Source of the DNA: a virus
Length of the DNA stretch: 9,708 nucleotides
UHGV virus genome: UHGV-0797466
Direction: 5' to 3' (one strand)
Shown here: piece after piece, positions 1 to 9,708 of the stretch
Layout of the letters: every line of letters begins with the position of its first letter
How positions within the stretch are numbered: position 1 is the stretch's first letter
Translations under genes and position numbers: made by a program
The notes under the pieces: generated by a model
Told to the model about the DNA's origin: nothing
Database searches by the model: none
The model's input: only the letters and a program-made list of their open reading frames with translations

Positions 1-13
1 GCCAGGAGGACCC

Positions 14-38
14 GTAAAAAAGCCGGATTGCTCCGGCT
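14..38 (-). terminator. Rho-independent terminator downstream of the SSB gene
   Basis: Hairpin AGCCGGA (21-27) / TCCGGCT (32-38) with a 4-nt loop; the A-run at 16-21 is a U-run on the minus-strand transcript. It lies 16 nt past the SSB stop at 54-56. The same block (about 85% identical) recurs at 8751-8775. Confidence 0.6.
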
Positions 39-751: not shown

Positions 752-801
752 ATTTATTTTTACCCCCTCGTTTAAAAAGTTTTGAGTTGTGCCTCCCCTT
801 G

Positions 802-1026
802 TCTACCTTATCTACCTTAGTGGCCCTCATGCCAGTAATGGCGCGGCTTTCAGCGGGGTAGAGTGCTTTTATCCACTATCTACCCCGTGTCTACCTCCCT
901 GTCTGACTCAGGTAAAATCAGGTAGAGAGGGTAGATAGTGGGTAGACAGTAAAAAAAAGCTATCTACCTAACTTAATGCACTGAATTAAATGTATTTTTC
1001 TTTACTCAGGTAGACAGGGTAGACAG
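802..1026. repeat. Iteron field, putative replication origin
   Basis: At least 11 copies of the hexamer core TCTACC / GGTAGA in about 225 bp: TCTACC at 802, 811, 879, 890, 963; GGTAGA at 857, 921, 930, 941, 1009, 1018. Extended form GGTAGACAG appears three times. An A8 tract (951-958) and an AT-rich stretch (971-1003) are embedded. It sits directly downstream of the primase/helicase gene, as P4 ori/crr iterons sit near alpha. Confidence 0.7.
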
Positions 1027-3326: not shown

Positions 3327-3546
3327 AAATTTTCTCCCTTATTCTTTTAATGTCCTCATTAAGGATGTCTGTAACTTTTATCAGCGAGTTTTTGGCAATT
3401 ATTTTTATTGTTTTAAGTTTTCTTTTGTCGTGCTCCGACTGTGATTTTCTCTCCATAATCTCCACCATGTGGGTAACATCAACGAGCGCACGTATCAGTA
3501 TTTGCATTGCTTCTTCTGCTGCGTCCGGTGTGGTTTTATTGCACAT
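3316..3546 (-). CDS. Hypothetical small protein (76 aa) in the AT-rich island
   Basis: ATG at 3544-3546 with strong SD GGAGGGG 3-5 nt upstream. Overlaps the 3' end of the 89-aa ORF in another frame. Charged, probably helical. Confidence 0.5.
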   Translation of the reverse strand: MCNKTTPDAAEEAMQILIRALVDVTHMVEIMERKSQSEHDKRKLKTIKIIAKNSLIKVTDILNEDIKRIREKICDA

Positions 3547-3764
3547 GTACCCCTCCGCATTTTTTCGTTAGAAATAAGCGTTCTTCTTTCCTGTTCATCG
3601 CTCAGGAATACGCAGACCTCACCGCTAAGGCGTTTAAGTAAGCCGATGATTGCCCCTGATTCGCTGTCGGTCATCATGCCAGGGTAATCCTCTGCCAGTG
3701 CGCAAATAACTTCGATTTGGTGGGCGCGTTCTGCTGCCTGTTGTAGTGTGATTTCCTGACTCAT
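3495..3764 (-). CDS. Hypothetical protein (89 aa)
   Basis: ATG at 3762-3764 overlaps the stop of the upstream Icd-like gene (ATGA). The C-terminal about 17 aa overlap the next ORF, so the true 3' end is uncertain. Confidence 0.45.
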   Translation of the reverse strand: MSQEITLQQAAERAHQIEVICALAEDYPGMMTDSESGAIIGLLKRLSGEVCVFLSDEQERRTLISNEKMRRGTCAIKPHRTQQKKQCKY

Positions 3765-4222
3765 AAGCCTACCCCCTGACGAATACGGGCGACAAAAATC
3801 AGATGTGCGTGCGGCAGCTGTGCACGTGCTTCGCGCTCAGTGGCAGCGGTAACGGTGAATATTGCAATGCTGTCTGTCAGGCACTGCATAAAGCGCCAGA
3901 CAAAATAAGGGCGTGCGGATACAGCCATGTGAAAGGCTCCCAGATGAATTTTAAGGAGTCTCGCTACTACGCTGTCAAACATGGTGGCGAGACGTAACAG
4001 GGTTGACAGACTGGTCATCTGGAAACCAGCGAGCACAAAGGCTCCCCCGTTACGCCCCGCCATAATGCGGGTATGGGTAGGTTTACGGACACAAAAAAAC
4101 CGCTTATCGGATGTGGGCGGCTGTCCGCCAGATGTATTCAGGCTGTCAAACCCGGTCGCCATGTGGGCGACGGGGGAAGCATACAGCCCCGTGATAATTT
4201 TTTGCAAGCGGTTTTTACGCAT
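3761..4222 (-). CDS. Ash/Icd-like protein (153 aa) with C-terminal Icd-like motif
   Basis: C-terminus TEREARAQLPHAHLIFVARIRQG matches the remembered Icd-like motif (SE.EAR ... LSFAAR). ATG at 4220-4222 overlaps the upstream stop (cATGcgTAA); SD-like AGGGG lies 7 nt upstream. An internal start at 3928 (GGGAG SD) is an alternative. Confidence 0.6.
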   Translation of the reverse strand: MRKNRLQKIITGLYASPVAHMATGFDSLNTSGGQPPTSDKRFFCVRKPTHTRIMAGRNGGAFVLAGFQMTSLSTLLRLATMFDSVVARLLKIHLGAFHMAVSARPYFVWRFMQCLTDSIAIFTVTAATEREARAQLPHAHLIFVARIRQGVGL

Positions 4223-5420: not shown

Positions 5421-5609
5421 TTAATGAACTGCCTTGCAGCTATCCTTCCAGGCCAGAACCTCGGATAAAGACCAGCCAACGGAACGACCGCCAAGTTTAC
5501 GACGTGATGGGAATTGTCCGGCCTTTTCCAGGCGGTAGCGACACGTACGGCTAAGGCCGGTTAGTTTTTCGCATTCTTTTTCACGTATAAACCGATCAGT
5601 GCTTAACAC
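5421..5609 (-). CDS. alpA: AlpA-family HTH regulator (excisionase-like)
   Basis: C-terminal part LTGLSRTCRYRLEKAGQFPSRRKLGGRSVGWSLSEVLAWK resembles the AlpA family (ITGLS...YRL...G.FP....LG.R.VGW...E...W). The track ORF (5421-5690) starts at TTG. I prefer the GTG at 5607-5609, which has a strong SD (GGGGGG, 5-nt spacer) and gives 62 aa, the usual AlpA size. Confidence 0.75.
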   Translation of the reverse strand: MLSTDRFIREKECEKLTGLSRTCRYRLEKAGQFPSRRKLGGRSVGWSLSEVLAWKDSCKAVH

Positions 5610-5880: not shown

Positions 5881-5930
5881 TCTTGTTCGTAGTTGTTCCA
5901 CATTGTTGCTCATTGTTGCACGTTGTATCT
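5881..5930. repeat. Five 10-bp-phased TTGTT repeats just 3' of int
   Basis: Decamers tcTTGTTcgt, agTTGTTcca, caTTGTTgct, caTTGTTgca, cgTTGTatct begin at 5881, 5891, 5901, 5911, 5921, in exact 10-bp register. Confidence 0.5.
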
Positions 5931-5974: not shown

Positions 5975-7204
5975 TTATTTTCTTCTGGCTACGGGTAGCG
6001 TGGTTACGTTTTCATGTGTTCCCGCCAGTATCCCTAACCGCTCCGTCCACATATCCAGCGCATTGCGTTTCGCATCCAGATAACGGGAATGATTATAAAC
6101 TCGCTGCATTCCTGGCATCTGGTGGCCTGTAAGCTGCTCCACGACATGCGGATCAACGCCTAAATCGTTCAGCATGGTTGTAAAGGTGCGCCGGATGTCA
6201 TGCAGTGACCAGTGAGGGTGATTAAGCCTCCTGTGCGCTAATCTTCCATACTGCGATACGCTGGCCTCCTGTTTCACTTCCCCCAGCAATAAGCCCGTGT
6301 GCCTGTTCTGCTCCACCAGCTGCGTGACGAACGGCAGGATCGCTTCCGGTATGGGCCGGAATATTGCGACCTTCGTTTTGCTGTGCTCCTTCGGAACGGT
6401 CCATAGCATTTCCGTAAAATCCCACTCCCCGATCTCCGATAACCTCAGTTCTACCGTTCTGGCTCCGAAGACAATCAGGAGGCGGATTAACGCGACGTAG
6501 TAAGGGGAGAATATTTTTTTGTCCAGTGCCTGCAATAATTCGCCAAGTTCTTTGTTACTTAAGACACGTTCGCTTATATCCGGTTTTTTCCCAACGTCCG
6601 CCACGTTCAGATCGTCCAGAACGTTGCTGATTGCATAGCGCCGCCTACGGCAGAACTTAAGCGCCTGTTTGCACGCCTGTAGCACGAATCCGGCAGTAAC
6701 AGGCGTTCGCTTTGCCACCTGGTCAAAACAGGCCAGCCAGTGCCGTAGCTCGCATTTATCCAGCGGCATAGCACCAATCTGCTGTATTACGTGATTATTA
6801 AGTCGCCTTTTCAGGGCGATATAATCCACGCGGTTTTCCTTTACGTAATACTCAAGCCAGTAGGTGAGCGCATCGCCAACCGTTACGGGCTTTAACGCTT
6901 CCTGTACGGTGTAATTCATCTCATGACGTGGATTTTTCCCCTCAGCCAGCCATGTGCGACACTGTGCGGCTTTTTCCCTGGCTGCTTTCAGGCTCAGATC
7001 AGGATAACTTCCCAGCTTAATGCGTTCGGGTCGTGTCTCCCTTCCCGTTCCGGCCCTGTATGTGAAATACCAGGTCAATTTCCCTGATGTTAAATATTTC
7101 ACGCTCAGGTTTCCGCCATCACTATAAAACGTGTTTTTCTCCGCTGGCTTACCATGAAGTTTCCTTAGCAAGGTATCGCTCAGTTTGTTCATTGCTCTGC
7201 TCAC
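5975..7204 (-). CDS. int: Tyrosine recombinase, P4-like integrase
   Basis: 409-aa ORF. N-terminal arm-binding-like region (SDGGNLSVKYLTSGKLTWYFTYR ... KLGSYPDLSLKAAREKAAQ) resembles P4-family integrases. C-terminal catalytic region contains HDIRRT and a Tyr near the end (RVYNHSRYL). GTG at 7202-7204 with SD GAGGGGG 6 nt upstream; an in-frame ATG at 7192 is an alternative. Confidence 0.9.
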   Translation of the reverse strand: MSRAMNKLSDTLLRKLHGKPAEKNTFYSDGGNLSVKYLTSGKLTWYFTYRAGTGRETRPERIKLGSYPDLSLKAAREKAAQCRTWLAEGKNPRHEMNYTVQEALKPVTVGDALTYWLEYYVKENRVDYIALKRRLNNHVIQQIGAMPLDKCELRHWLACFDQVAKRTPVTAGFVLQACKQALKFCRRRRYAISNVLDDLNVADVGKKPDISERVLSNKELGELLQALDKKIFSPYYVALIRLLIVFGARTVELRLSEIGEWDFTEMLWTVPKEHSKTKVAIFRPIPEAILPFVTQLVEQNRHTGLLLGEVKQEASVSQYGRLAHRRLNHPHWSLHDIRRTFTTMLNDLGVDPHVVEQLTGHQMPGMQRVYNHSRYLDAKRNALDMWTERLGILAGTHENVTTLPVARRK

Positions 7205-7228
7205 GTTTTACCCCCTCTTTACGAAAAA

Positions 7229-7620
7229 GTGACTACACCAGTGACTACACCGTTCGGTGCACTGTATAGAAACAACGTGGAACAAATAGACACAAGAAAT
7301 ATACAGGCGGGTCATCTTTCCAGGGGGAAGCGCGCTAATTCATGAGGGGCGTTAATGTTGATATGGGGATCCCCATAACGGGGCTACCGGATTTTTTTCC
7401 GGTTTAACTGTTAATCAGGCTGGTGGGCTTTACCTGTTTTGTAGGAGTGGTCATTATGACCATTCAGACAATGACCTTAATCAGAACTTTTCGCTAAAAA
7501 ATGACGTTGGTCACGTCGTCCGGAAAGCACAAAATCCCGTCAATTTTTAATTAACGGTTAAACCGTCTTTTGTCACGGCGTGTCACTGGTTGTCACTCTC
7601 CGTCACGGTATGTCGCTACT
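7229..7620. other. attP-like region: arm-type repeats on both sides of a palindrome-rich central segment
   Basis: Tandem 12-bp repeat GTGACTACACC(A/G) at 7229-7240 and 7241-7252, 25 bp upstream of int. Five 10-bp-phased repeats at 7571-7620 (TGTCACggcg, TGTCACtggt, TGTCACtctc, cGTCACggta, TGTCgCtact). GTCAC is the reverse complement of GTGAC, and GTCACT resembles the lambda Int arm-site core (AGTCACTAT) as remembered. Between them: perfect palindromes TATGGGGATCCCCATA (7362-7377) and GGTCATTATGACC (7449-7461), and a hairpin at 7386-7403. Confidence 0.5.
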
Positions 7621-7622
7621 CG

Positions 7623-7904
7623 TTAACGCCGTAACCGCTCCGGCTTCTTCCAGTGGTACGTAATTTTCTCCGTTTCCCGATACAGTGCCACGCGGCGATT
7701 GTAGGCCAGCATTTCAAGAACGCGGATCCGTATGTTGCGCATATCCACATCATTAAGCTGGATACCATCACGGCGCATCACCTCAGCAACCACACGCGCG
7801 TAATTTTCGGCGGTCACGCTGTCCGGCTGCGTGGCCTGTTCGTCATGCTGCTGGCTGATTCCGGTAACGCGGCGGATTAATCCCAGTAGTTCGGCTTCTG
7901 TCAT
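7623..7904 (-). CDS. Hypothetical protein (93 aa) between cos and the att region
   Basis: The track ORF (7623-8102) would run across the cos site. The internal ATG at 7902-7904 (MTEAELLGLIRR...) has an SD-like GGGGG upstream and leaves cos intact. No family recognised. Confidence 0.5.
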   Translation of the reverse strand: MTEAELLGLIRRVTGISQQHDEQATQPDSVTAENYARVVAEVMRRDGIQLNDVDMRNIRIRVLEMLAYNRRVALYRETEKITYHWKKPERLRR

Positions 7905-7938
7905 TGTGCCCCCATCGCTCTGATAGTCTGGTGTCGTC

Positions 7939-8116
7939 GGGTCCTTCCTGGAATTATGGCCCGTTACGGGGCGGCGACCTCGCGCGTTTTCACTATTTAT
8001 GAAAATTTTTCGGGATCCATGTCCGGTTTCTCTGCAAGTTAACCATATGAAAAATATAAAAACATGCTTTCCATGAACCGGACATGCGCAAAAAACAGAC
8101 ACTAAAACCGGACATC
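7939..8116 (+). other. Lambda-type cos site (cosQ-like flank, cosN, cosB-like repeats), plus-strand orientation
   Basis: 7969-7980 is GGGCGGCGACCT, the lambda 12-nt cohesive end as remembered. The flanks resemble the lambda left end (CGCGcGTTTTCaCTATTTATGAAAATTTTtCGG) and right end (GGGTCCTTcC..GG..CGTTACG). cosB-like repeats follow: ATGTCCGGTT (8019-8028, inverted), AACCGGACAT (8076-8085), AACCGGACAT (8106-8115), with an AT-rich spacer that could be an IHF site. Confidence 0.75.
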
Positions 8117-8183
8117 GAACCAGTTAACCGAAAGTGTGCACAAATCACATGCATTGCTGCGAGTGATTAACAAGTTATCGGCT

Positions 8184-8618
8184 TTACTGTTCTGTATCGG
8201 CTGATTGCTCCATGCTGGCACGGCGAACGCTTATGGCATGACGCCACCCAGCCAGAAAGCCAGCCATTTTATTTCGTGCCTTGCTCACATCTTCCGGTGA
8301 ATAGCCGTAAATCTGCAAACCTTCATCAAATCGATGTTCTGTTTCTTCACTGGAGTACTCGTCACGCTCAGATGAAAGCAGCCTGGCAAACATAATTTTT
8401 TCCAGCGCACTGGTTTCTACGTGATATCTGATGGTCTCAAGACGGCTTTTACCTGAAGACCAAAGCAATGTATGCCCGATGTGATAACCGCCAGACTTTC
8501 CGCGATCCGCATTAAGATACGGCATCCCCTGTTTGGTCCATGCGCGAATAGTGGTTCTGTTAACCTTGAAATGTTCAGCTATTTCCTGCTGACTTACAAA
8601 ACAAGCTTTATCAATCAT
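8184..8618 (-). CDS. Nu1-like terminase small subunit homolog (winged-HTH); candidate Rpp-type packaging redirector
   Basis: N-terminus VSQQEIAEHFKVNRTTIRAWTKQGMPY aligns with lambda gpNu1 (VNKKQLADIFGASIRTIQNWQEQGMPV) as remembered. 144 aa. ATG at 8616-8618 with AAGGT SD. No terminase large subunit follows, which fits a satellite TerS-like protein rather than a phage terminase operon. Confidence 0.8.
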   Translation of the reverse strand: MIDKACFVSQQEIAEHFKVNRTTIRAWTKQGMPYLNADRGKSGGYHIGHTLLWSSGKSRLETIRYHVETSALEKIMFARLLSSERDEYSSEETEHRFDEGLQIYGYSPEDVSKARNKMAGFLAGWRHAISVRRASMEQSADTEQ

Positions 8619-8685
8619 AATGTTACCTTAACTGCATGGTTAAATATTAATCAAGTGGTGGTGGTGTCACCTTCACGGAAAAACG

Positions 8686-8750
8686 TCATAAATAGCGAAA
8701 ACCCGCGAGGTCGCCGCCCCGTAACGGGTCCATAATTCCAGGAAGGACCC
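8686..8750 (-). other. Second lambda-type cosQ-cosN module, inverted relative to 7939-8003, upstream of the Nu1-like gene
   Basis: The reverse complement of 8686-8750 reads GGGTCCTTCCTGGAATTATGGACCCGTTACGGGGCGGCGACCTCGCGGGTTTTCGCTATTTATGA. cosN is at 8708-8719 on the minus strand. The 22 nt after cosN match lambda exactly as remembered. No AACCGGACAT repeats lie between this cosN and the gene start. Confidence 0.7.
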
Positions 8751-8775
8751 GTAAAAAAGCCGGATTTCTCCGGCC
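8751..8775 (-). terminator. Rho-independent terminator downstream of the 137-aa gene, abutting the cosQ-like flank
   Basis: Hairpin GCCGGA (8759-8764) / TCCGGC (8769-8774) with loop TTTC; the A-run at 8753-8758 is a U-run on the minus-strand RNA. It lies 7 nt past the stop at 8781-8783 and is paralogous to the terminator at 14-38. Confidence 0.6.
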
Positions 8776-8780
8776 TTGTC

Positions 8781-9194
8781 TCAGATGGTTTTCAGTATGC
8801 GATCGATGTCGCCGTCATCGCCCTGGTTTCTGCCATCGTATGCCATGCCAGCTGATACGGCTTGCGGGCTGTGCATGTCCATAAAGTTTTCAAAGGCTGC
8901 GGTAAGTTCCGGCGCAACCTTCGGACGTTCCTGCTCTATGGTCATGCTAAGGATGCTTTTAGCCGTACCAACATCGATACAAGGCACGTTTGCCATTGCA
9001 CGCAACAGCGGCTGATAGTCTTTATGCTCATGAAGCGCCATAATCGCATCAGCGCGCGGCTTGTCCTGCTCTTCCAGTTTGTTTAGTTGATATACGGCCT
9101 CATAGGTTGATAAACCTCTGTCAGCCATTGCCCGCGCTTCGGCTTTAAATTTACTCGCCAGCGGTAGCGTCATGATGCTTTCATTCGTTGCCAT
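8781..9194 (-). CDS. Hypothetical protein (137 aa) between the gpD-like gene and cos
   Basis: ATG at 9192-9194 with AGGGGGA SD. Acidic C-terminal region. No family recognised. A capsid-related role is suggested by position only. Confidence 0.55.
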   Translation of the reverse strand: MATNESIMTLPLASKFKAEARAMADRGLSTYEAVYQLNKLEEQDKPRADAIMALHEHKDYQPLLRAMANVPCIDVGTAKSILSMTIEQERPKVAPELTAAFENFMDMHSPQAVSAGMAYDGRNQGDDGDIDRILKTI

Positions 9195-9206
9195 CGTTCC
9201 CCCTGC

Positions 9207-9542
9207 TTATCGGGCCAGCGGCTGAACGGATACGCCGGAACCCGCAAAGGCGGCGCATTTTTTCGCATCGGTGTCGACGCTCTCAGGCCAGTTAACGGCG
9301 GCAATATTGAATATCCCCGTCTTGTAACACTGTGCTGATTTCTGCTTTGACGTGTCCACAGGGTACGAGGTCAGATAAACAGCCTTGCCAGATTCCTTAC
9401 CATCCCACGGCTTAAACTCGCCATTGTCCGCCAGCATCAGCGGGGTAAATTCCTGAATAACGCCAGCATCAGCGGCAAAATGTACCAGCGTCGTGGCGAC
9501 CTGCTGACTGCCTGCAAATAACTCAATGTATGGAGTGTCCAT
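9207..9542 (-). CDS. Head decoration protein, lambda gpD-like
   Basis: 111 aa. TPLMLADNGEFKPWDG ... YKTGIFNIAAVNWPESVDTDAKKCAAFAGSGVSV matches lambda gpD as remembered (TPLMLDTSSRKLVAWDG ... [35 protein letters not shown]). ATG at 9540-9542. Confidence 0.8.
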   Translation of the reverse strand: MDTPYIELFAGSQQVATTLVHFAADAGVIQEFTPLMLADNGEFKPWDGKESGKAVYLTSYPVDTSKQKSAQCYKTGIFNIAAVNWPESVDTDAKKCAAFAGSGVSVQPLAR

Positions 9543-9553
9543 AGAATCCCCCG

Positions 9554-9708
9554 TTAACCAATTTTGACGGTAACAAATTTGCGAATATCTGCCGGAACCG
9601 GCTGCGGTGCGCTGTGCGTCTGCACGTACTCAATCGCCGGATCGCCGTCCTCAATCCAGTTTTTCGGGTAAAAAATGGTCCGAGCAGGATAAAGACATGC
9701 ACGACCCA
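9554..9708 (-). CDS. 3' end of an upstream ORF running off the window (possibly scaffold/protease-like by synteny with lambda Nu3/C before D)
   Basis: Open minus-strand frame ending at TAA (9554-9556). Hand-translated C-terminus: ...WIEDGDPAIEYVQTHSAPQPVPADIRKFVTVKIG. Function is inferred from position only. Confidence 0.35.
   Translation of the reverse strand, partial: GRACLYPARTIFYPKNWIEDGDPAIEYVQTHSAPQPVPADIRKFVTVKIG

What the first reader, a model, noticed from the sequence alone, without database searches (positions are those of the whole stretch)
7229..7620. Complete attP-like site beside int: tandem satellites or a non-integrated form
Arm-type-like repeats lie on both sides of a palindrome-rich centre: a tandem 12-mer GTGACTACACC x2 at 7229-7252 next to the int start, and five 10-bp-phased GTCAC repeats at 7571-7620 in the opposite orientation. 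An integrated element should keep only one arm at each end. Both arms together indicate either a POP'-type junction between two tandemly integrated elements (as in lambda dilysogens) or a window from an episomal, concatemeric or circular form. Under the tandem reading, 7623-9708 is the cos-proximal end of a second satellite abutting the integrase end of the first.
Basis: inference. Interest (0 to 1): 0.6.

Follow-up and report, generated by a model that had tools for sequence, protein, structure and literature searches.

The report
Collapsed, core-less PICI attachment site
This stretch is the attachment-site region of a known E. coli phage satellite (an EcCICFT073/EcCIO42-type PICI), but the 233 bases holding the real crossover point are missing, so it is a collapsed or deleted junction, not a complete working attP.

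Summary
The repeats are real. AGTGACTACACC occurs twice in tandem at 7228-7251. GTCAC occurs four times at 10-bp spacing at 7572-7606, followed by a degenerate fifth copy. The window does join the int end of an ~11.4-kb satellite to its cos/rpp end, the reverse of the order in integrated copies.

It is not a complete attP. In integrated copies, which sit in tqsA, the 12-mer pair occurs at both ends. The same is true of a circular IMG/VR contig and of a tandem dimer in strain EC444. In the real attP the pairs lie at -151/-139 and +82/+94 around a 9-bp core, TGCTGTTAT. The window has one hybrid pair. Exactly 233 bp between the two 23-nt repeats, including the core, are gone.

The hybrid junction occurs in none of 5,426 complete E. 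coli genomes and in none of 27 arm-repeat occurrences in IMG/VR. It occurs once in a 1.55x-coverage metagenome contig. The window also carries private indels clustered beside the junction and an inverted chimera at its 3' end. I lean towards a sequencing or assembly collapse. A real deletion in an episomal form is not excluded.

The GTCAC array is not the second arm: elements with the same Int arms lack it.

The case is ordinary and of low interest.

The parts
5975..7204 (-). Tyrosine integrase, 409 aa, of the P4/CP4-57 type, with an N-terminal arm-binding domain.
   Evidence: Pfam Arm-DNA-bind_3 (1.4e-18) plus Phage_integrase (2.9e-16). The N-terminal domain matches the PDB CP4-like integrase 3jtz. 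The exact protein sits next to pntB/tqsA in all 10 places read.
7228..7251 (+). Single hybrid copy of the tandem 12-mer AGTGACTACACC x2, a putative Int arm-type site with conserved sub-motif ACTACACC.
   Evidence: In the real attP there are two such pairs, at -151/-139 and +82/+94 from the core. ACTACACC is invariant in the paralogous attP L043, while the 4-nt linker changes. That Int binds here is an inference.
7230..7252 (+). The collapse point: the 23-nt repeat TGACTACACCAGTGACTACACCG. Sequence to its left is of the int-side (P arm) type. Sequence to its right is of the P' arm type. In the real attP the two copies of this repeat start 233 bp apart; the window keeps one copy and lacks that 233 bp, which includes the core TGCTGTTAT.
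   Evidence: Four-way alignment. Repeat positions. It is one of only two exact direct repeats of 21 nt or more in the element.
7253..7457 (+). Distal P' arm, shared by every element that uses this Int type. It holds a phased AACAA pair at 7271/7281 and conserved hairpins and palindromes, including 7362-7377.
   Evidence: Conserved between the Rpp-type PICI, the cf-PICI type (L014) and the phoQ/roxA paralog (L043) up to about 7457, after which they diverge.
7458..7622 (+). Mosaic 3'-end module that is not part of the Int att site. It holds four conserved 10-bp-phased GTCAC copies (7572-7606) plus a non-conserved GTCGC at 7612. On the minus strand it has terminator-like hairpins at 7557-7537 and 7517-7503.
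   Evidence: The module is nearly invariant in satellites at the clpS-side and yejO-side sites. It is absent from 13 loci that carry the same arm repeats. The terminator scan is. Its function is unknown.
7623..7904 (-). Conserved 93-aa gene of unknown function (phrog_1561), the last gene before the P' arm.
5421..5609 (-). AlpA-family protein, the candidate recombination directionality factor and PICI activator.
   Evidence: Pfam Phage_AlpA 5.4e-17. PHROG annotation 'excisionase and transcriptional regulator'. The role of AlpA in EcCICFT073 is described in PMC6092414.
5883..5926 (+). Array of four 10-bp-phased TTGTT copies between int and alpA. The same pentamer, as AACAA, is paired at 10-bp spacing in both att arms. 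It is a candidate AlpA binding array.
   Evidence: This is inference only.

Best explanation
Interval 7205-7622 is a truncated attachment-site region of an EcCICFT073/EcCIO42-type cos PICI that integrates into tqsA.

The real attP, seen in relatives, runs as follows:
- int start codon
- ACTACACC-containing 12-mer pair at -151/-139
- a roughly 50-bp module with phased AACAA
- 9-bp core TGCTGTTAT, identical to a stretch of tqsA
- second 12-mer pair at +82/+94
- the same AACAA module
- about 200 bp of conserved P' arm

By analogy with P4 and lambda, the inferred mechanism is this. The N-terminal arm-binding domain of Int holds the two 12-mer pairs. Its catalytic domain exchanges strands at the core. 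AlpA acts as directionality factor, and the P arm also carries the int promoter.

In the window the two 23-nt arm repeats have been merged into one. The 233 bp between them, core included, are missing. What remains is the int-proximal stub of P fused to the outer part of P'. This cannot recombine with tqsA.

The join of the int end to the rpp/cos end reflects either a circular, concatemeric or tandem template, or a false join of attR to attL. The 233-bp loss most likely arose during sequencing or assembly, for example by template switching or repeat collapse in a poorly supported stretch. It is less likely to be a stable biological form.

The GTCAC array belongs to a separate mosaic module at the end of the late operon.
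For: Structure (shown):
- attL, attR and the tqsA split give the core TGCTGTTAT.
- The reconstructed empty site is present at 100% identity in genomes with an intact tqsA.
- The reconstructed attP junction was found exactly in a circular IMG/VR contig, L002, which has a 119-bp terminal overlap. It also occurs inside the EC444 tandem dimer.
- The alignment shows a clean 233-bp gap bounded by the 23-nt repeat.
- The core is absent from the window.

Rarity of the hybrid junction:
- No complete genome has it in one piece.
- None of 27 arm-pair occurrences in IMG/VR is hybrid.
- It is absent from the GTDB representative genomes.
- The single other instance is L003, at 1.55x k-mer coverage.

Signs of poor sequence in the window:
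- Against the otherwise identical L001 it differs by zero substitutions and four indel events.
- Three of the four indels lie within 150 bp of the junction, and their combination matches none of 768 genomes.
- Bases 9666-9708 are an inverted chimera joined at 8-12 nt of microhomology.

Protein and family evidence:
- The Rpp homolog matches 6hlk at 4.5e-31.
- E. coli 042 carries the element in tqsA.
- Family biology is described in PMC6092414 and PMC6739421.
- P4 Int and Vis autoregulation at the att/int promoter is described in PMC7286903.
Against: - The identical junction, in the same register, occurs in an independent contig, L003. L003 is only 96% identical and carries different cargo resembling L017. 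The event is therefore recurrent, as a real hotspot deletion would be.
- If the window came from long or HiFi-type reads, which its indel-only error profile would fit, a 233-bp loss would more likely be a property of the molecule.
- I could not find the source reads or the source contig.
- Binding of Int to the 12-mers and of AlpA to the AACAA sites is inferred, not shown.
Confidence: 0.55

Rival explanations
1. The 233-bp loss is real. In an excised circle, a replicating concatemer or a tandem dimer, slipped-strand or short-homology recombination between the two 23-nt direct arm repeats deleted the core. The result is an integration-dead PICI that persists only as an episome or by repeated helper-mediated transfer. 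The ~75-bp arm modules that hold these repeats are roughly 80% alike.
For: - The same junction occurs in two diverged elements, the window and L003.
- The substrate exists in nature: two direct repeats 233 bp apart in one molecule, both in circular L002 and in the tandem dimers.
- Family members form covalently closed circles and replicate autonomously when AlpA is expressed (PMC6092414).
- Sp7 of O157 Sakai is spontaneously induced and accumulates circular DNA (PMC2669165). It is described as encoding a P4-like Int and a Vis homologue; I did not check whether it is the tqsA element.
Against: - The junction is found in none of 5,426 complete genomes and none of 27 IMG/VR arm pairs.
- The only other instance has 1.55x coverage.
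- The window's private indels cluster at the junction, and it has a chimeric end.
- PICIs are reported to have no plasmid state (PMC6092414), so a core-less variant should be lost.
Confidence: 0.3
2. 7229-7620 is a complete attP (POP') whose arms are the 12-mer pair and the GTCAC array, with the crossover core somewhere in the palindrome-rich middle. It marks a dilysogen-type junction or a circle.
For: - The int end abuts the cos end.
- The repeats exceed chance.
- Tandem dimers exist in the family.
Against: - The mapped core TGCTGTTAT and 224 further bases are absent.
- In integrated copies 7229-7620 is contiguous on one side of the core.
- The GTCAC array is absent from elements that use the same arms and core (L014, L044) and from the paralog L043.
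Confidence: 0.03
3. The GTCAC array is an accessory set of Int arm-type sites or of recombination-directionality-factor sites. On this reading it modulates recombination only in Rpp-type elements.
For: - Spacing of 10 bp is typical of directionality-factor arrays (abstract of PMC7498355).
- AGTGACT in the 12-mer resembles TGTCACT in the array.
Against: - The array lies about 420-460 bp from the core.
- The GTGA part of the 12-mer is not conserved in the paralog.
- The array travels with a mosaic module found at the yejO site without ACTACACC pairs.
- Thirteen loci with the same arm repeats lack it.
Confidence: 0.08

Closest known systems
EcCICFT073 / EcCIO42-type Gram-negative cos PICIs (Fillol-Salom et al. 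2018, PMC6092414; 2019, PMC6739421)
   Same: - Unidirectional order: int, alpA, primase-replication gene with iterons just downstream, then gpE-like capsid and gpD-like decoration genes.
- An Rpp homolog flanked by two lambda-like cos sites.
- E. coli 042 carries the same kind of element in tqsA, with the same Rpp (144-aa) and 93-aa protein accessions as L001.
- Circular and concatemeric forms are documented for the family.
   Different: Nothing essential differs in the element itself. The window's att junction lacks 233 bp relative to every integrated or circular relative examined. I did not find the arm-site layout described in the papers I read.
P4 / CP4-57-type heterobivalent tyrosine integrase systems (P4 Int, Vis and attP)
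   Same: - Int has an Arm-DNA-bind_3 N-domain and a tyrosine recombinase catalytic domain.
- An AlpA/Vis-family gene lies next to int.
- attP lies immediately upstream of int, so arm sites overlap the int 5' region. This fits the reported autorepression of P4 int by Int and Vis (PMC7286903).
   Different: - The target is inside a protein-coding gene (tqsA), which is disrupted, not a tRNA gene. No tRNA gene was found in the window.
- The rest of the element is a PICI, not P4-like.
- No binding data exist for this Int.
Lambda dilysogen POP' junction and tandem arrays of integrative elements (PMC7192596)
   Same: Real tandem dimers with an intact internal attP occur for this integrase family: EC444, a cf-PICI dimer, and NCCP 13894, a dimer at phoQ|roxA.
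   Different: - The window's junction has no core, so it is not POP'.
- The window contains less than one unit length and no second int.
Capsid-forming PICIs (cf-PICI; bioRxiv 10.1101/2022.09.08.507074)
   Same: The integrase type, the tqsA core and both arm repeats are shared with cf-PICI-type elements that carry an HK97 capsid, protease, portal and terminase (L005-L007, L014, L044).
   Different: - The window's element has the lambda-type capsid and decoration genes and rpp instead of a full head module.
- cf-PICI-type copies lack the GTCAC array.

Membership tests
Functional attP of a heterobivalent (arm + core) tyrosine integrase | The integrase carries a separate arm-binding N-terminal domain. 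| tested here: met
   Pfam PF13356 Arm-DNA-bind_3, 1.4e-18. PDB 3jtz, a CP4-like integrase N-domain.
Functional attP of a heterobivalent (arm + core) tyrosine integrase | A core (overlap) sequence identical to the bacterial target is present between the arms. | tested here: not met
   The core TGCTGTTAT was mapped from attL, attR and the empty tqsA site. It is absent from 7205-7622 even with one mismatch. It lies within the 233 bp missing from the window.
Functional attP of a heterobivalent (arm + core) tyrosine integrase | Arm-type repeats lie on both sides of the core. | tested here: not met
   The real attP has ACTACACC pairs at -151/-139 and +82/+94. The window has one merged pair. The GTCAC array is not an arm of this system.
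Functional attP of a heterobivalent (arm + core) tyrosine integrase | Int, and the directionality factor, bind the repeats. | not testable with these tools
   Needs a gel-shift or footprinting experiment. Only positional and conservation arguments are available.
POP' junction of tandemly integrated elements | An intact attP lies between the int end of copy 1 and the far end of copy 2. | tested here: not met
   The order int end then far end is present, but the junction lacks the core. True examples for comparison are L014 and L043.
POP' junction of tandemly integrated elements | A second copy (second int and replication module) and host attL/attR lie on the same molecule. | not testable with these tools
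   The window spans 9.7 kb of an ~11.4-kb unit and repeats nothing. The source contig was not found.
EcCICFT073-type cos PICI | int plus alpA, a primase-replication gene with adjacent iterons, and unidirectional transcription. | tested here: met
   The iteron-like repeats lie at 797-1026, just downstream of the primase gene at 1040-2794 on the minus strand.
EcCICFT073-type cos PICI | Rpp, two lambda-like cos sites, and gpE/gpD homologs. | tested here: met
   The Rpp homolog matches PDB 6hlk at 4.5e-31. Inverted cosN-like copies lie at 7938-8015 and 8673-8751. HDPD was found. The capsid gene lies mostly outside the window but is present in L001.
EcCICFT073-type cos PICI | Helper-phage-dependent induction and packaging. 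| not testable with these tools
   An experimental property. It has been shown for EcCICFT073 (PMC6092414) but not for this element.

The most novel reading that the evidence does not exclude
The 233-bp loss is a genuine, recurrent in-vivo deletion between the two Int arm-site repeats. It would produce core-less, integration-dead PICIs that circulate only as episomes or packaged DNA. On this reading the duplicated arm sites of this attP form a built-in deletion hotspot that converts an integrative satellite into a non-integrative one.
Probability: 0.3. Interest if true: 0.4.

Novelty: already known. Interest (0 to 1): 0.15.

Why it matters
Mostly it matters as a caution. A sequence that places 'both arms beside int' looked like an excised or tandem satellite. 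The decisive part of the site, the crossover core, is missing, and the second 'arm' belongs to another module.

The useful by-products are these:
- A precise map of the attP/attB of a very common E. coli PICI integrase: core TGCTGTTAT in tqsA, with ACTACACC tandem pairs on both arms.
- Two natural tandem dimers.
- A paralogous attP with the same arms but a swapped core.

If the deletion were real, it would show that duplicated arm sites make this attP prone to self-inactivation.

Tried and rejected
- tRNA-type att site. No tRNA or tmRNA gene is in the window. The target is tqsA.
- STEC hits covering window 7080-7305 in one piece. I considered that they might show a lineage with the window's junction. 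Alignment showed they are ordinary attR P arms. The hit extended only because the P and P' modules are about 80% alike.
- A 'plasmid' carrying the region (CP088587.1). It is a chromosomal fragment with pntAB and mdtIJ flanks and an integrated cf-PICI.
- Search for the window's source. Exact look-ups of the frameshift-specific ORF (3495-3764) and the junction-spanning ORF (7087-7269) found nothing. The junction 36-40-mer is absent from the viral and GTDB collections.
- De Bruijn graph collapse at k of 23 or less, as a full explanation for the window. The start of the window lies beside the only other 23-nt exact repeat. However, the window passes correctly through that repeat's other copy and also starts right after a C9 run, so this is inconclusive.
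- Rfam. Nothing was found in 7205-7622.
- The promoter scan gave no convincing int promoter.

Full report
**1. What is in the sequence**

The tandem 12-mer AGTGACTACACC x2 lies at 7228-7251. It starts 24 nt upstream of the start codon of a 409-aa integrase gene (5975-7204, minus strand). GTCAC occurs at 7572, 7582, 7592 and 7602, exactly 10 bp apart. A degenerate GTCGC follows at 7612.

Both features exceed chance. Four or more phased identical pentamers appeared in 1 of 300 dinucleotide shuffles. An exact tandem duplication of a 10-14-nt unit appeared in 6 of 300. The palindromes between the two features are real. The window has no tRNA gene.

**2. What the element is**

Int has an Arm-DNA-bind_3 domain and a Phage_integrase domain. 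The next gene (5421-5609) is AlpA-family. A D5/DUF5906 primase lies at 1040-2794, and a gpD-like decoration protein at 9207-9542. The 144-aa protein at 8184-8618 is an Rpp homolog (PDB 6hlk, 4.5e-31). It is flanked by two inverted lambda-like cosN copies.

This is the EcCICFT073/EcCIO42 kind of Gram-negative cos PICI described in PMC6092414 and PMC6739421. E. coli 042 carries such an element at the same chromosomal site.

**3. Comparison with integrated copies**

The window is essentially identical to an element in E. coli 300033 (L001), which is integrated in tqsA. The mapping is permuted. Window 1-7285 matches L001 9952-17237, ending at int. Window 7226-9677 matches L001 6001-8451, the opposite, rpp/cos end.

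The host junctions in L001 place the crossover elsewhere:
- tqsA is split at ...TTATTGCTGTTAT|ATATAAC... (attL).
- It resumes at ...GATAAAATGCTGTTAT|TCTTAACC... (attR).
- This gives a 9-bp common core, TGCTGTTAT.

The reconstructed empty site occurs at 100% identity in genomes with an intact tqsA. tqsA is a published target of integrative elements (PMC7192596).

**4. The real attP**

Joining attR-left to attL-right predicts an attP. I found its core junction exactly in a circular IMG/VR contig, L002 (10,979-bp unit with a 119-bp terminal overlap). It also lies inside a head-to-tail dimer of a cf-PICI-type satellite in the EC444 chromosome.

In this attP the tandem 12-mer occurs twice, in direct orientation. 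The copies are at -151/-139 (P arm, next to int) and at +82/+94 (P' arm), 233 bp apart. Each pair heads a module of about 75 bp. The two modules are roughly 80% alike and contain an AACAA pair at 10-bp spacing.

Every integrated copy examined has one pair at each end. A paralogous integrase inserts between phoQ and roxA. It is seen as another tandem dimer, in NCCP 13894. It has nearly the same arms but a different core, roughly ATATGTCC or a few bases longer. Its 12-mers read TTAACTACACC, so ACTACACC is the constrained part.

**5. What the window has instead**

The window has a single hybrid pair. To the left of the 23-nt repeat TGACTACACCAGTGACTACACCG the sequence is of the int-side type. To the right it is of the P' type. 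Exactly 233 bp, including the core, are missing. No TGCTGTTAT, even with one mismatch, lies in 7205-7622.

The finding interval 7229-7620 is therefore the outer P' arm plus a further module. It is contiguous in ordinary integrated copies on the attL side. It is not a complete attP and not a POP' junction.

**6. How common the hybrid junction is**

- No complete E. coli genome among 5,426 contains it in one piece. The only full-coverage hit is the EC444 dimer, with the extra ~225 bp.
- Of 27 occurrences of the arm repeat in 24 IMG/VR loci, 7 are int-side to P and 20 are core-side to P'. None is hybrid.
- The GTDB representative genomes have none.
- One metagenome contig, L003 (ERZ772893 NODE_20432, 2,181 bp, k-mer coverage 1.55), has the same junction in the same register. 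It is 96% identical and carries different cargo resembling L017.

The event is therefore recurrent but very rare.

**7. Artefact or biology**

For an artefact:
- Against L001 the window shows no substitutions and four indel events. Three of them (+A at 7268, T8 to T7 at 7392-7399, TT to TTT at 7403) lie within 150 bp of the junction. Their combination matches none of 768 genomes carrying this arm.
- The last 43 bases are an inverted copy of sequence about 400 bp further on, joined at 8-12 nt of microhomology.
- L003 has such low coverage that a small-k join across a 23-nt repeat is plausible. This last point is my reasoning, not a tool result.

For biology:
- There are two independent occurrences.
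- A circle or dimer offers two direct repeats 233 bp apart in one molecule.
- Family members excise and replicate as circles (PMC6092414).

I put an artefact at about 0.55 and a real deletion at about 0.3. Only the reads can decide. Either way the site as it stands cannot recombine with tqsA.

Tandem versus circular cannot be told from the window. It spans less than one unit (9.7 of ~11.4 kb) and duplicates nothing.

**8. The GTCAC array**

The array lies about 420-460 bp from the core. It sits between the stop codon of a conserved 93-aa gene (7623-7904) and terminator-like hairpins on the minus strand.

The four exact copies and their spacers are almost invariant in satellites at the clpS-side site (L017) and the yejO-side site (L018). 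The surrounding DNA diverges there, and the fifth copy is not conserved. The array is absent from cf-PICI-type copies and from the phoQ/roxA paralog, which use the same arms. It is absent from 13 loci that carry ACTACACC pairs.

It is therefore a mosaic module of unknown function, probably a protein-binding array on one face of the helix. It is not the second Int arm.

**9. Mechanism (inferred from the P4 and lambda paradigms)**

- The Int N-domain binds the ACTACACC pairs on both arms.
- The catalytic domain exchanges strands at TGCTGTTAT.
- AlpA may act as the directionality factor at the phased AACAA sites. A matching array of four TTGTT copies lies upstream of alpA at 5883-5913.
- The P arm overlaps the int 5' region, as in P4, where Int and Vis repress the int promoter (PMC7286903).

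None of these binding steps was tested.

**10. Verdict**

The repeats and the permuted topology are real. The 'complete attP' interpretation is not supported. The element, its integrase type, its target gene, and its circular and tandem forms are all known. Interest is low.

Noticed in passing
window 7938-8015 and 8673-8751: Two inverted lambda-like cosN/cosQ copies flank the rpp homolog (arms of 56 nt at 88% and 25 nt at 96%). Three ACCGGACAT copies at 8019-8115 lie next to the first one (0.06 expected by chance). They are candidate cosB R-elements for the Rpp-TerS complex. This corresponds to cos1/cos2 of EcCICFT073.
   Followed up: partly
window 3980-4067 (-) and 4135-4184 (-): Rfam finds a C4 antisense RNA (72.6 bits) and its a1/b1 target (46.8 bits) beside Icd-like genes. 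This is a P1/P7-type c4-icd immunity module inside the PICI.
   Followed up: no
window 5883-5926; also 7271/7281: Four TTGTT copies at exact 10-bp spacing lie between int and alpA. The reverse-complement pentamer AACAA is paired at 10-bp spacing in both att arms (-100/-90 and +123/+133 in the real attP). These are possible AlpA sites shared by a promoter and the att site.
   Followed up: partly
window 9666-9708, window 1-37, window 3559: The window shows signs of error-prone data. Its 3' end is an inverted chimera of sequence ~400 bp away in the capsid gene. Its start lies right after a C9 run and beside a 23-nt repeat also found at 8744-8766. A T8 run is shortened to T6 at 3559, which shifts an ORF.
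   Followed up: yes
L014 (NZ_CM128674.1, EC444) 900-31550; L043 (NZ_CM167691.1, NCCP 13894) 3060-25560: These are two natural head-to-tail satellite dimers in finished chromosomes, each with an intact internal attP. One is a cf-PICI pair in tqsA. The other is a pair with gpE/gpD-type capsid genes between phoQ and roxA.
   Followed up: partly
L043 14040-14400 compared with L001 attL/attR: The paralogous attP has nearly identical arms but a swapped core region. There GATAAAA and TTTTATC form perfect inverted repeats around TATGTCC. Target specificity seems to have changed by replacing about 30 bp around the core.
   Followed up: partly
L004-L013, L014, L044: The same or nearly identical integrase, core and arms serve two different satellite types. 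One is the Rpp-type with gpE/gpD-like genes. The other is the capsid-forming type with an HK97 capsid, protease, portal and terminase. The int-att module is exchanged between satellite families.
   Followed up: partly
window 797-1026: Short iteron-like tandem repeats (CCTTATCTA, GGTAGACAG and others) lie immediately downstream of the primase gene. This is the position of the PICI replication origin reported in PMC6092414.
   Followed up: no
L018 5150-5560 and L014 16590-17017: Repeated units of the form TCCTCAAATTGAGGTTTCCGAAAATATCAGC.GGTTA lie between the P' arm and the 93-aa gene. They occur in elements that lack the GTCAC array, and L018 has both. Their function is unknown.
   Followed up: no
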